NCBI GenBank assembly: GCA_030668825.1
Contig: DAOVET010000089.1
Span: forward strand, 1 to 10,663
Reading direction: 5' to 3'
Origin: Candidatus Heimdallarchaeota archaeon
Lineage (GTDB): Archaea > Asgardarchaeota > Heimdallarchaeia > Heimdallarchaeales > Heimdallarchaeaceae
DNA: 10,663 bases
This document shows, piece after piece, positions 3,488 to 10,663 of this stretch. Each line of letters begins with the position of its first letter. The first letter of the stretch is position 1. Made by a program: the position numbers and the translations under genes. The notes below the pieces were generated by a model. The model saw only the letters and a list, made by a program, of their open reading frames with translations. It was not told the origin of the DNA and made no database searches.

Positions 3488-4440
3488 ATGAAAACTAAGA
3501 AACAATTAAAAAAAGAACTTAGATTAAACGAAATAATTTGGGGTTATTCTCCAAAGGGAATAAGTAATCCTCAATTAGCAATTGAACTTTCATTGAATGG
3601 TGGAATTGGTTTAATTGATCTTGAAGGATTAGAAGAAAGTGTTTCGAAAAAAATAATTGAGACTTGTTCAAGTAAGATTCCTTCAGATAAACTGTGGGGA
3701 GTTCGATTCCCTGATGTAGAATCTTTATCGGTTCTATCTGAAGTTGACTCAATACCCATTGGAATTATAGCTTTTGAGGTAGAACAAGACGATTTAGTAA
3801 AACTAGTTTCAAAGCTTAAATGGAAAGTTGCTGAAGTTGTAAATTTGGATGAGGCTCAAAAAAGAACAGACTGGGTAGATTTCTTTTTAGTAAAAGGGTT
3901 TGAATCAGGAGGAAAAATAAGTGATCAAACATCTTTTATTTTGATTCAAGAATTCAATAAGGCTGGATTTCCTTTTATTATTCAAGGAGGTTTTGGTGTC
4001 TATAACATAGTTACAGCTATAGTAGGGGGGGCACTAGGAGTAGTTCTAGAAGGACAACTTTTTCTTCTTCCTGAATGTCCCCTTAGTTCGTTGACCAAAG
4101 AATACCTAGAAAAGCTTGATGAGAACGATACATACATTGCAGGAGAAAGCTTCTCAAACAAATACAGATTGATAGGTAAAATTGCAAATAATTCTATTCG
4201 AGAATTGAAGAAATTTGAGAAAAAAATCTCTGATAAAGGTGAAGAAGAACTACAAGAATTTTTGAAACAACTCTCTAGTAAATCTCATTTCTTTGATTCA
4301 GAAGAAATAAAACATTCATTCCTACCTTGTGATATAGGTTTAAGTTTTGCTCCATTTATAAAGGAAATTTTCGATGATTTAAGATCATTTTTAACTGCAA
4401 TTCAAGACATCATTCAAGACCAAATCAAAACAGTTTCTAC
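3488..4440 (+). other. Domain: degenerate FabK/nitronate-monooxygenase-like TIM barrel (copy 1)
   Basis: NGGIGLIDL...KVAEV...FFLVKGFESGGKI...FPFIIQGGFG...GALGVVLEGQL. It follows the pattern of the FMN barrel, but Lys (3914-3916) sits where ExGGH has His. Boundaries are approximate. Confidence 0.6.
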
Positions 4441-7400
4441 TAACTGGCCTTTTGAAGAAGAAAGCGAATTTGCAAAAAGCCTAAAAATTACCTTTCCTAT
4501 CATTCAAGGCCCTATGGCCAATATTACAGATAAGACTGATTTTGCAATTAAAGTAGCAGAAGAAGGAGCATTACCAGTTTTAGCTATGGGAGGACTATTG
4601 AAAAAAGAAGCTGAGGAACTATTTGCAGAATTCAACTCGAAATTTCCTGAAAATCAGAATTATGCAGGAGGAATTATCGGTCTAGAGGTAATGAAAGAGA
4701 GAAGAGAAGCTCATATATCTCTAATGGTTCAGAACAAAACCCCTATCTGTCTAATTGCAGCAGGATCTATTCAACTAGCAACTAGAATTCAAAAAATGGG
4801 GATGAAAACTATCATTCATACTCCAGCTTTAAGCTTATTCAAGGAAGCTATAAAATATGGTCACCAATATGTAATTTTAGAAGGCTGTGAATGTGGAGGG
4901 CATATAGGTAATCTTACATCTTTAACGCTCTGGGAATCAATCTTACAGTATCTCAGTAATAATGCAGATCAGATATCTGACAAAATCAACATTGTATATG
5001 CTGGAGGTATAGGAGATGAACTTGGAGCTGCTATGCTAGCAGGAATGATTGGGTGTCATCTAGATTTAATAAATCCTGGTATTCAGATGGGAACAGCTTA
5101 TCTTTTCACTGATGAGATTGTAAAAACAAAAGCTCTCACTTCACTGTATCAAGAAAAACTTCTTGATTCAAATATCACCAGAGTTATAGGTTCTACAGTT
5201 AATACACGAGCTCGTGCTGTACCCTCTGAATTTGTATCTAAGACAATTGAAAACGAACGAATTATGATTAAAGAAGGATTGTCTATAAGCGAAAGAAAGA
5301 AACTCTATGAAAAAGATAATTTAGGAGCTCTCAGAATTGCTGCAAAAGCTGAGAACTGGAATGAAGATTATGTACCAGGAGGAGATTCAACACAATTCAA
5401 TTTAGTTGATGAAAAAGAACATGATACTTTAGGATGTTTCATGGCAGGTGAAATTATCAGTTTGAAGCGTAATGTTGTTCAGATTAAAGACCTTCATTAT
5501 GATATTGTAGTGTCTGGTAAAGAACTATTCAGAAATAGAAGAAATTCAATTGAAAAGATGTTAGAAAGAGATATTGTTCATGATGTTCCAGAAATTCAAT
5601 GTTTGGAATTACCATCACAAAATAGAATTGCAATAGTTGGTTTAGGATGTATTTTTCCAGACTCTGCAAATATTGGTGAATATTGGGAAAACATAATTTC
5701 CAAGAAATATTCAATAACTGAAGTTCCAGATTCAAGATGGGATAAAAACATCCATTTTGATTAAGATAAAACAGCTCAAAATAAAACCTACTCCAAGATA
5801 GGGGCTTTTGTAAAAGATTACAAGTTTAATTCTATCAATTATCGAATTCCACCTAAAATATCAGATAGTATGGATGCAGTTCAGAAATGGTCCCTTGACG
5901 CTGCAAAGCAAGCTTTAGAAGATGCAGGTATCTCTATAGATGGAAAAAATAGACTTCCAATTGCAGTAATTATTGGAAATGCTTTAGGGGGGGAAAATCA
6001 AAGAATAACTAACAAAGGATTATTTGTTTCTGAATTCCTTTTTGAGCTAGAAAATAATGCAGTTTTCAAATCACTTGGTGAAAAAGAACAGAATTCTCTC
6101 TTACAAAATCTAAAAGAAAATTATGATGAGAAATTTCCTTCAATTACTGAAGATTCAATGCCTGGAGAATTGTCCAATGTTATATCCGGTCGTATTGCTA
6201 ATGTGTTTAATCTTACAGGTAAGTCTATGACTACTGATGCAGCTTGTGCTTCAAGTATAGCTGCTTTAGATACAGCTATTAAATCATTAACATCTGGTGA
6301 TTTCGATACAGCTTTGGTAGGTGGTGCAGATAGATCTATGGATGTTGCTTCTTATGTAAAATTTAGTAAGATTAGAGCTCTCTCTGCAAAAGGTTCTTGT
6401 CCTTTTGATGAAAGTGCTGATGGTTTTGTTATGGGAGAAGGTGCAGGATTTATGGTCTTGAAAAGATTGGAGGATGCTATTAGAGATGAAAACAAAATAT
6501 ATGCAGTCATCCCAGCTATTGGTTCATCTTCAGATGGTAAAGGGAAAAGTATAACCGCTCCAAATCCAGAGGGACAAAAACAAGCCATTTCAATGGCTCT
6601 CCGTTTAGCAGATTTAACAATAGATGAAATTGATTACATTGAAGCTCATGGTACATCAACTATTGTAGGTGACGCTGTAGAATTAAACGTTCTAAAAGAA
6701 GTTTTTAAGAACCGTAAGAATACAAAAAAACTTGCAGTAGGTTCCATAAAAAGTCAAATAGGTCATCTAAAGGCTGCTGCTGGAATTGCATCTCTGATAA
6801 AAACAACACTTACCATCTATAATAAGATATTACCACCTTCAATAAATGTTCAAACACTTAACCCAAAAATTGATTGGGATAAATCAAATTTAATAATAAA
6901 TAAAGAACCCATTGATTGGGGTGTAGAACAAGGAGTTCTTCGAAGGGCTGGAGTATCTGCTTTCGGTTTTGGTGGAACCAATTTTCACACAATATTGGAA
7001 GAATATTCACCTGAAAAAGTAAAATATATATTTGAAGAAAGCCCTCTTCCTGTTGCTGAAACAATTGATTTGACTTCCCCAAGTGAAATATCTCTTCAAA
7101 GTATCAAACCAAAATTAAGCTTCATGTTTACTGGACAAGGTAGTCAATATCTAGGCATGGCTAAACATCTTTATGAAAATTCTTCAATTGTAGCTCAAAC
7201 TTTTGAGAAAGCAGAAAAAATCTGGTACAGTTATTATAGCTATAGTCTAAAGGAAATAATATTTGGTTCAGAGAAACTCTCTGATGAGGCTAACAAGAAA
7301 AGATTAACTGATACTAAGTTTACTCAACCAGCTTTATTCGTTGTAGATATAGCTATAGCACGACTACTATCTGAAGAAGGTATACTACCTGATATTGTTT

Positions 7401-10400: not shown

Positions 10401-10663
10401 TTGCTAATTACGTCTCCAAGTATGCGGTAACAGATGGTACAATCTCAAAAGATGTGAAATTTGATTTAGAGAAGAAAAAGTCAGTACAGATGGAGAGGGA
10501 TGTTAGAATAGATAAAATAATCGTATCACCAGCGAGCTTAAACAAAGAAAAGGCTGAAAAACTGGACTTATCAAATCTATCCTCTCTAGTAATTAACCTT
10601 GAATCATCTCGAACAAGCTCAATTTTAGAGGAATTCTCAAAGAAGAGTTTTCAATATCATGAA
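3488..10663 (+). CDS. Type I FAS/PKS (Pfa-like) megasynthase ER'-ER-KS-AT-KS-ACP-ACP-..., interrupted by one in-frame TAA at 5762-5764; runs off the right edge
   Basis: I translated the frame codon by codon from 5765 to 10663 and found no further stop. Protein similarity runs straight through the stop: VPDSRWDKNIHFD*DKTAQNKTYSKIGAFV. At least 2392 codons in total. It may be an intact gene with a sequence error, or a recent pseudogene. Confidence 0.88.
4490..5520 (+). other. Domain: FMN-dependent enoyl reductase, FabK/PfaD/NMO-like (copy 2)
   Basis: FPIIQGPMANIT, GALPVLA, LEGCECGGHIG (His 4901-4903), IVYAGGIGD, GIQMGTAYLFTDE and GCFMAGE. Boundaries are approximate. Confidence 0.8.
5624..7008 (+). 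other. Domain: ketosynthase 1 (PfaA-like), contains the in-frame TAA
   Basis: RIAIVGLGCIFP, TEDSMPGELSNVISGRIAN, TTDAACASS (Cys 6245-6247), EAHGTST (His 6647-6649), GSIKSQIGHLKAAAG (His 6764-6766) and RRAGVSAFGFGGTNFHTILEEY. Confidence 0.92.
7115..8030 (+). other. Domain: acyltransferase (probably malonyl-CoA:ACP)
   Basis: FMFTGQGSQYLGM, TKFTQPALF, GHSLGEY (Ser 7409-7411), ERGRAM, IANYNS..QTVVSG, LNVSTAFHS (His 7727-7729), SVRW and FVEVGP. Confidence 0.92.
8330..9720 (+). other. Domain: ketosynthase 2 (divergent)
   Basis: IGITGVGIGLPG, GLEALTDAGIPL, GPNTQINAACASTTQA (Cys 8957-8959), LPFGKNRHGLIIG, VSHETYTP (His 9401-9403), NTKGYTGHPMGAG (His 9521-9523) and AAGFGSQ. Confidence 0.85.
9908..10135 (+). 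other. Domain: acyl carrier protein 1 (Thr at the phosphopantetheine site)
   Basis: [48 protein letters not shown]...LSLAEFTSPNKIVSYI. It matches the Pfa-type ACP pattern TGY..L...M.LE.DLGIDS except for S->T (ACT, 10010-10012). Confidence 0.88.
9938..10385 (+). repeat. Diverged direct repeat (291-nt period) corresponding to the tandem ACP duplication
   Basis: gatatgcatctagaagaggatttagggattgatactgtgaagcaagctgagatttttgg versus gatatggatttagaagaagatttgggaattgataccatcaagcaagctgaaatctttgg. Many differences are at third codon positions. Confidence 0.75.
10202..10425 (+). other. Domain: acyl carrier protein 2 (Thr at the phosphopantetheine site)
   Basis: [44 protein letters not shown]...VSLAEFRSIQDIANYV, with Thr codon ACC at 10301-10303. 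Confidence 0.88.

What the first reader, a model, noticed from the sequence alone, without database searches (positions are those of the whole stretch)
3488..10663. Unusual domain order ER'-ER-KS-AT-KS-ACP-ACP in one polypeptide
Seen: the domain motifs in this order in one frame. Known: PfaA is KS-AT-ACPn-KR, with KS-CLF in PfaC and the ER as stand-alone PfaD. Modular PKS and animal FAS have one KS per module and an MDR-type ER. Here a second KS sits between AT and ACP, there is no ACP between the two KSs, and the flavin ER is N-terminally fused. Inference: an iterative all-in-one synthase in which two KSs share the ACPs, e.g. short- versus long-chain elongation or a final head-to-head condensation of two acyl chains.
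Basis: partly seen in the sequence, partly recalled or inferred. Interest (0 to 1): 0.75.

Follow-up and report, generated by a model that had tools for sequence, protein, structure and literature searches.

The report
All-in-one fatty acid synthase in Asgard
This gene from a Heimdall-group Asgard archaeon encodes one giant enzyme that probably builds fatty-acid chains the way bacteria and eukaryotes do, and it sits in lineages where a key enzyme for archaeal-type membrane lipids could not be found, so it offers a direct way to test whether these relatives of eukaryotes make bacterial-type lipids.

Summary
The domain order is real. The one in-frame TAA reads GAA in 4 of 4 near-identical public assemblies. 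Relatives complete the protein as ER'-ER-KS-AT-KS2-ACP2-KR-DH-PPTase. The layout is not unprecedented: it lies between Shulse and Allen's Types S, R/T and P, and Desulfomonile tiedjei has the same order. No product is reported for an ER-plus-KS2 form in the papers I could search. This scan had noted the active KS2 on two other Asgard genomes. Against point 4: other Asgard genomes lack a detectable GGGP synthase without the synthase, and no PlsX was found. Verdict: new variant of a known kind.

The parts
3488..10663 (+). Megasynthase gene, first 2392 codons; cut by the contig end. Relatives continue with KR, double-hotdog DH and PPTase to about 3350 aa
3515..4432 (+). ER': degenerate FabK-like barrel, Lys143 at the position of the catalytic His
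4451..5557 (+). ER: FabK-type flavin enoyl reductase, His472 (4901-4903)
5609..7027 (+). KS1, PfaA/type I class, Cys920, His1054, His1093
5762..5764 (+). In-frame TAA found only in this assembly; GAA elsewhere
7109..8092 (+). AT, Ser1308, Arg1333, Ala-Phe-His motif (malonyl type by the recalled motif rule)
8315..9724 (+). KS2, FabF-like, Cys1824, His1972 (followed by an invariant Glu), Lys2007, His2012; 21% identical to KS1
9893..10144 (+). ACP1, Thr2175 (10010-10012) at the phosphopantetheine site
10193..10417 (+). ACP2, Thr2272 (10301-10303) at the phosphopantetheine site
1900..3477 (+). Acyl-CoA carboxylase carboxyltransferase, 10 bases upstream of the synthase
1054..1803 (-). Biotin-protein ligase (BirA-like), divergent from the operon

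Best explanation
An iterative, fully reducing, ACP-based (type I) fatty acid synthase of Asgard archaea, encoded with its own malonyl-CoA supply. The biotin ligase arms the carboxylase (carboxyltransferase, biotin carboxylase, biotin carrier), which makes malonyl-CoA. The fused PPTase arms the tandem ACPs, apparently on threonine. AT loads malonyl, KS1 elongates, and KR, DH and the FabK-type ER reduce each unit to a methylene. ER' is a non-catalytic partner that packs on ER as a built-in dimer mate. KS2 is a second working decarboxylative condensing enzyme on the same ACPs; most likely it primes the chain or covers another chain-length range. The alpha/beta hydrolase next door releases or edits the chain, which then goes into lipids, plausibly through the PlsY paralogues. 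Shown: domain set, catalytic residues, gene neighbours, ER/FabI exclusivity, Thr. Inferred: every activity, the product, the role of KS2 and ER', and the destination of the chains.
For: All domains for a full reductive cycle lie in one chain, and catalytic residues are invariant apart from gaps: KS2 Cys 265 of 265, His 262 and 261 of 265; ER His 275 of 276; KR Tyr, DH His and PPTase Asp/Glu likewise. A carboxyltransferase gene lies directly upstream at 9 of 9 synthase loci read (8; G015 by matching size and position). In one search the biotin ligase is beside it at 7 of 8, biotin carrier at 8 of 8, biotin carboxylase at 8 of 8 and hydrolase at 7 of 8; the exception for ligase and hydrolase is ER-less G054. 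Among 83 genomes of the class, the fused ER occurs in f1 27/31, f2 1/1, f3 2/3, f7 12/12 and f4 0/12. A FabI-like gene occurs only in f4, 10/12, and lies just downstream of the synthase in 4 of these 10. A PlsY-like gene lies next to the ligase in G016. ArsA, with the same ER-KS-AT head, supplies the C22-C26 alkyl chains of phenolic lipids. Type S was proposed to be the core FAS of Desulfobacterium autotrophicum. CexF, probably the ER-less Type T core, iterates and gives a polyene.
Against: No member with ER plus KS2 has a measured product in what I read. The ER/FabI swap is one evolutionary event, since the genomes of a family are kin. ACPs with Thr instead of Ser fail the standard definition; whether they are armed is untested. 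No PlsX (0 of 83 over cut-off) and no GpsA (0 of 83) were found, and PlsC is missing in f1 (0/31) and f7 (0/12), so the route from acyl-ACP to a phospholipid is incomplete. The carboxyltransferase scores best with the mmdA/PCC-type model, below its cut-off, so its substrate is not fixed. The FabI-like protein is below all FabI cut-offs. The invariant Glu after the first KS2 His departs from FabF and may signal other chemistry. That CexF is Type T rests on organism, size, the adjacent PPTase and its being the only candidate; I did not see its sequence.
Confidence: 0.6

Rival explanations
1. KS1 builds reduced chains and KS2 performs one final condensation of two chains (Pks13-like with a carboxylated chain, or OleA-like using the invariant Glu), giving long-chain ketones, diols or alpha-branched acids as a specialised lipid.
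For: KS2 is only 21% identical to KS1 and of FabF type. It has an invariant His-Glu not seen in FabF. It also occurs as a stand-alone protein of about 500-560 aa in several Asgard genomes. The linked carboxyltransferase could carboxylate longer acyl-CoAs. In P0134/P0206 the ACPs lie before KS2.
Against: No acyl-CoA or acyl-AMP ligase among the neighbours scanned (96 of 209 flanking ORFs). In the celluxanthene model the head-to-head step is assigned to separate KASIII enzymes, not to the PKS. The AT motif is of the malonyl type (rule recalled).
Confidence: 0.2
2. The synthase makes a minor secondary lipid or metabolite (cell-surface lipid, lipoprotein anchor, partly reduced polyketide), and the membrane stays isoprenoid, made with a GGGP synthase too diverged for my models or with an unrelated enzyme.
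For: G000 keeps G1P dehydrogenase, CarS, a DGGGP-synthase-like UbiA protein and two polyprenyl synthases. All 10 synthase carriers in family f20 keep a canonical GGGP synthase, as do 10 of 12 f4 genomes in diverged form. Of ten f19 genomes retested, nine had no full-length match, and only three of these carry the synthase; two of the others are single-contig genomes. A cultured Lokiarchaeote has isoprenoid lipids (review). Chen et al. infer archaeol bilayers for Heimdallarchaeia.
Against: Near-universal, single-copy presence in f1, f2, f3, f4 and f7 (KS1 in 53 of 59) with a fixed carboxylase operon looks like core metabolism. Family f7 shows neither G1P dehydrogenase (0/12) nor GGGP synthase (0/12) and has 4-8 PlsY matches per genome. 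This rival concerns the destination of the product and is compatible with the enzyme chemistry of the best explanation.
Confidence: 0.15
3. The window copy is a pseudogene, or two genes split at 5762.
For: The TAA is in the assembly.
Against: G at 5762 in 4 of 4 runs; GAA in 3 of 3 relatives; the stop falls inside KS1; constraint as in relatives.
Confidence: 0.03

Closest known systems
Type S secondary lipid synthase, Desulfobacterium autotrophicum HRM2 YP_002604438 (Shulse and Allen 2011, PMC3098273, Table S1)
   Same: Listed as ER-KS-CLF-AT-KS-ACP3-KR: N-terminal ER, a KS between AT and tandem ACPs. 119 Desulfobacterales-type homologues have ER'-ER, KS1, AT, KS2, with the same catalytic residues and Thr ACPs.
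   Different: Type S has an extra KS-like domain between KS1 and AT and a separate PPTase gene. Its KS1 and KS2 form their own clade. Product unknown; proposed to be a core FAS. I had homologues, not the HRM2 sequence.
Desulfomonile tiedjei type I polyketide synthase AFM24222.1 (P0201, 3524 aa)
   Same: Identical order ER'-ER-KS1-AT-KS2-ACP2-KR-DH-PPTase, Thr ACPs.
   Different: Only 27-38% identical by segment; outside the Asgard clade; no study of it came up in my searches, none of which named it.
Types R and T (Roseiflexus, Koribacter, Solibacter, Elusimicrobium; Clostridium thermocellum, probably CexF of celluxanthene biosynthesis, PMC12144888)
   Same: KS-MAT-'CLF'-ACPn-KR core followed by a PPTase gene; a carboxylase gene in the Koribacter cluster; a hydrolase in the cex cluster.
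   Different: No ER, separate PPTase; CexF makes an arylpolyene with KASIII, ligase and free ACP partners, which were not seen beside the ER-fused Asgard synthases.
ArsA and Types M, N, O, P (ER-KS-MAT-ACPn-KR); Beijerinckia indica WP_012382816.1
   Same: Same ER'-ER-KS-AT head, 33% identical over 1196 columns, ER' also without the His.
   Different: No KS2, DH and PPTase on another gene, Ser ACPs, type III PKS partners.
PfaA-E PUFA synthases
   Same: KS1-AT-tandem ACP-KR-DH core; best NCBIfam match TIGR02813.
   Different: Score 856 bits, below the 1010 cut-off; no KS-CLF pair or FabA-type DH; the ER is closer to FabK than to PfaD.

Membership tests
Type S secondary lipid synthase | N-terminal ER fused to KS; second KS between AT and tandem ACPs | tested here: met
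Type S secondary lipid synthase | CLF between first KS and AT | tested here: not met
   AT follows KS1 after about 28 residues; the extra domain is present in 119 of 119 new homologues
Type S secondary lipid synthase | KS groups with the Type S clade | tested here: not met
   Asgard clade (FastTree support 0.99 KS1, 0.96 KS2) is apart from the Desulfobacterales clade; HRM2 itself not in the tree
Type R/T secondary lipid synthase | KS-MAT-'CLF'-ACPn-KR in one chain | tested here: met
Type R/T secondary lipid synthase | No ER in the protein; PPTase on a separate gene | tested here: not met
   both fused
Type R/T secondary lipid synthase | KS groups with the named Type R/T proteins | tested here: inconclusive
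   no named Type R or T sequence was in hand; unnamed ER-less proteins and one from Nonomuraea are nearer than ArsA types
Type P (ArsA) | ER-KS-MAT head | tested here: met
Type P (ArsA) | single KS and flanking type III PKS genes | tested here: not met
PfaA (TIGR02813) | score above curated cut-off | tested here: not met
   855.6 against 1010.1
Chain length factor (for KS2) | catalytic Cys lost | tested here: not met
   Cys in 265 of 265
FabF-type ketosynthase (for KS2) | thiolase fold with Cys-His-His and Lys | tested here: met
FabK enoyl reductase (for ER) | FabK barrel with catalytic His | tested here: met
   NCBIfam FabK score is far below cut-off
FabK enoyl reductase (for ER') | catalytic His | tested here: not met
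   His in 1 of 186 readable motifs; 272 examined, 86 not matched by the pattern
Acyl carrier protein | Ser at the phosphopantetheine site | tested here: not met
   Thr aligns with the Ser of AcpM and PigH; Thr in 748 of 753 motifs
Type I fatty acid synthase (functional class) | all activities of a reductive cycle and the carrier in one chain | tested here: met
Type I fatty acid synthase (functional class) | makes saturated fatty acyl chains | not testable with these tools
   needs expression and product analysis

The most novel reading that the evidence does not exclude
Several Heimdall-group families (f1 with this genome, f3, f7) have crossed the lipid divide: they lost GGGP synthase and build their membranes wholly or largely from fatty acyl chains made by this type I synthase, whose carriers are armed on threonine, and attach them with PlsY paralogues (to glycerol-1-phosphate in f1, where G1P dehydrogenase is kept). 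They would be natural archaea with ester or hybrid membranes, close to the origin of eukaryotes.
Probability: 0.2. Interest if true: 0.93.

Novelty: new variant of a known kind. Interest (0 to 1): 0.68.

Why it matters
How the archaeal host of eukaryotes came to have fatty-acid membranes is called an enigma in a 2026 analysis (PMC12872458), and the function of Asgard PlsY and PlsC homologues is open (PMC9385802). A complete ACP-based synthase with its own carboxylase supplies the missing source of acyl chains and makes the question testable by expression and lipid analysis. Limits: Hodarchaeales-type neighbours matter most for eukaryote origins, and two families of the class (f5, f6) lack this synthase (0 of 24); I did not test any link to eukaryotic synthases. 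Separately, a family-wide Thr carrier site and an active KS in the 'CLF' slot would be new enzymology in cultured bacteria too (Desulfomonile, Desulfobacula).

Tried and rejected
Recoding or readthrough of TAA: rejected, the base is G in other assemblies. A rest of the gene elsewhere in G000: none. ER' against ER by BLASTP: E 0.03 only; the homology rests on the PDB match, the motif and the model. The profile comparison was circular (query inside the alignment) and is not used. Expression: no RNA holder listed, no evidence either way. PlsC, PlsX, GpsA and GGGP synthase in G000: not found; G000 is 90.6% complete. My first reading that GGGP synthase was missing from the whole order was wrong: a model with diverged members found it in f2, f4, f5 and f6. 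The one f1 genome with a canonical copy (G020) has it on a 7.6-kb contig whose three comparable genes are 28-33% identical to their best G000 match; base composition did not separate it, so contamination is likely but not shown. A link of KS2 to fungal FAS appeared only as an Atlas row and was not pursued. Search for Cthe_0135 found nothing. Table S1 of PMC12042123, which lists Asgard lipid genes, gave no hits for my terms and may bear on the GGGP synthase claim. No complex prediction was run, since KS pairs tend to pass by likeness to solved dimers.
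Full report
Observation. The window is the whole 10,663-base contig C129 of G000. Frame +2 is open from ATG 3488 to the end except for TAA 5762-5764. Pfam and domain mapping give ER', ER, KS1, AT, KS2, ACP, ACP in that order. Three loci titled Candidatus Heimdallarchaeota, about 92% identical, have GAA at the stop and one frame of about 3350 codons that goes on with KR, a double-hotdog DH and a PPTase; a fourth locus was a short piece and was not used. Contigs of 4 of 4 public runs from 4 studies read G at 5762; it is the only difference over 1001 bases in three and over the 671-base piece in the fourth. 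One may be the source of this DNA. The stop is an error or a private variant of this assembly.

Anatomy. ER matches FabK by sequence and fold. The 701-residue head folds as one confident unit (pLDDT 93, pTM 0.94) with two series of eight strands; residues 29-270 match a FabK weakly. ER has the catalytic His in 272 of 272 proteins, ER' in 1 of 186 readable motifs. I infer a built-in dimer of one active and one structural barrel; I did not superpose the model on a FabK dimer. KS2 is 21% identical to KS1, folds like FabF and keeps Cys in 265 of 265 homologues, the two His in 262 and 261 and Lys in 260, the misses being gaps but for one. It is not a chain length factor. An invariant Glu follows its first His. 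Both ACPs carry Thr where AcpM and PigH have the cofactor Ser. Across KS2-bearing proteins 748 of 753 matched motifs have Thr and 5 Ser, whereas ArsA-type proteins have Ser. All four Thr codons are used, and a few tandem arrays mix Ser and Thr copies, which fits selection for a hydroxyl. Arming on Thr is inferred, not shown.

Relatives. The exact order ER'-ER-KS1-AT-KS2-ACPn-KR-DH-PPTase was found in 67 of the 221 proteins then in hand (these were picked by homology searches and include cluster mates). Named ones are mostly Asgard archaea, but Desulfomonile tiedjei has it too. Desulfobacterales carry a form with an extra KS-like domain and no fused PPTase, which matches the listing of Type S. 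The ER'-ER-KS-AT head is that of the ArsA-type protein of Beijerinckia. In FastTree trees of 63 KS2 and 75 KS1 domains, hand-picked from about 330 proteins and midpoint-rooted, the Asgard-named sequences fall in one clade (0.96, 0.99) that includes an ER-less branch with proteins named Kariarchaeaceae. Three members of the clade bear non-Asgard labels (Zixibacteria, Bathyarchaeia, Methanobacteriota); the first has Heimdallarchaeota cluster mates, so misbinning is likely. No direction of transfer was tested. KS2 was matched in 60 of 400 genomes of the phylum, concentrated in families f1-f4 and f7, with 3 of 14 in f19 and 10 of 135 in f20.

Context. In the window a carboxyltransferase lies 10 bases upstream and a biotin ligase diverges from it; relatives add a hydrolase, a biotin carrier and a biotin carboxylase downstream. 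I fetched flanks of nine synthase loci from five families and three stand-alone KS2 loci and scanned 96 of 209 flanking ORFs, the nearest ones. The carboxylase genes recur at all eight loci whose carboxyltransferase was scanned; ligase and hydrolase at seven; for G084 only the upstream side was fetched. G016 has a PlsY-like gene beside the ligase. The ER-less locus of G054 has a FabI-like gene directly downstream and a FabH-like gene upstream. Over 83 genomes of the class the fused ER and the FabI-like gene exclude each other: ER in 42 genomes of f1, f2, f3, f7 and 0 of 12 in f4; FabI-like in 10 of 12 in f4 and 0 of 71 elsewhere. This is one event among kin, but it is what one expects if enoyl reduction is required.

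Lipid genes. PlsY was found in 59 of 59 genomes of f1-f4 and f7, three copies in G000. With Pfam and with a four-sequence model that includes diverged members, a full-length GGGP synthase was found in 1 of 31 f1, 0 of 3 f3 and 0 of 12 f7 genomes, against 1 of 1 f2, 10 of 12 f4, 19 of 22 f5 and 2 of 2 f6; a filter-free search of G000 found none. Family f7 also shows no G1P dehydrogenase. Against this: G000 keeps G1P dehydrogenase, CarS, a DGGGP-synthase-like protein and polyprenyl synthases; all 10 carriers in f20 keep GGGP synthase; nine of ten retested f19 genomes had no full-length match although only three carry the synthase, while a cultured Lokiarchaeote makes isoprenoid lipids, so the enzyme can be invisible to these models or replaced. 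PlsX and GpsA were not found in the class, and PlsC is absent from f1 and f7. Most genomes are incomplete.

Mechanism. I commit to an iterative, fully reducing type I fatty acid synthase fed by its own carboxylase, with KS2 as a second decarboxylative condensing enzyme for priming or another chain-length range (0.6). A final condensation by KS2 is the main chemical rival (0.2). Whether the chains enter the bulk membrane is a separate and weaker claim (0.2).

Literature. PMC3098273: three of seven parts of the text, passages, and part 1 of 2 of Table S1; figures not seen. PMC12144888: three of four parts of the text and one part of the supplement; the figure with the CexF domains was not seen. 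PMC9385802: passages and the concluding section. Passages only: PMC7472256, which reports KS domains nearest to PUFA synthases in a Heimdallarchaeota MAG without architecture, PMC12139934, PMC6274091, PMC4882568, PMC13291983, PMC6431249, PMC12042123, PMC13691511, PMC12777485, PMC12872458; PMC10307638 had no hit for my terms. Searches turned up no description of an Asgard type I fatty acid synthase operon, and 16, 27, 34, 43, 61, 64 none of a product for an ER-plus-KS2 form; the library lacks most subscription papers. I ran no paper search on Thr carriers, so that point is not shown to be new. Recalled, not from a call: the AT motif rule, the Pks13 and OleA mechanisms, and the roles of PlsX, FabI and GGGP synthase.

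Verdict. Real feature, ordinary as a catalogue of domains, unusual in what surrounds it. New variant of a known kind; interest 0.68.

Noticed in passing
window 1-735, minus strand: Purple-acid-phosphatase-like metallophosphoesterase with an FN3 domain, cut by the contig start; two tandem copies in L001. Not seen beside the synthase in distant genomes.
   Followed up: partly
L023:9569-11224, L024:9455-10942, L025:8919-10580: Stand-alone KS2 proteins of about 500-560 aa in several Asgard genomes, without a shared neighbourhood; a YhhN-family gene is near one.
   Followed up: partly
L011:8999-16001 (G015): In this single-contig genome the synthase is in two frames (about 1510 and 2730 aa) with part of KS1 apparently repeated.
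   Followed up: no
P0134, P0206: Variant with the two ACPs between AT and KS2; P0086 has an N-terminal ACP.
   Followed up: no
L026:6138-11032 (G032): Two carboxyltransferase and two biotin carboxylase genes around the synthase.
   Followed up: no
window 8321-9730 (Atlas): KS2 look-alike clusters with diatom members and with fungal KS-PPTase proteins; leads only.
   Followed up: no
L033, L034, L035: Strongly diverged GGGP-synthase-like proteins in families f4, f5 and f6, 23-30% identical to a canonical one.
   Followed up: partly
G204 to G270 (family f20): PlsY matches lie in frames of about 400 aa, longer than the usual 230-250 aa, suggesting a fusion.
   Followed up: no
L007:8899-16650: Nonomuraea gerenzanensis has an ER-less KS1-AT-KS2-ACP-KR-DH synthase; the collection lists no annotation there.
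   Followed up: partly
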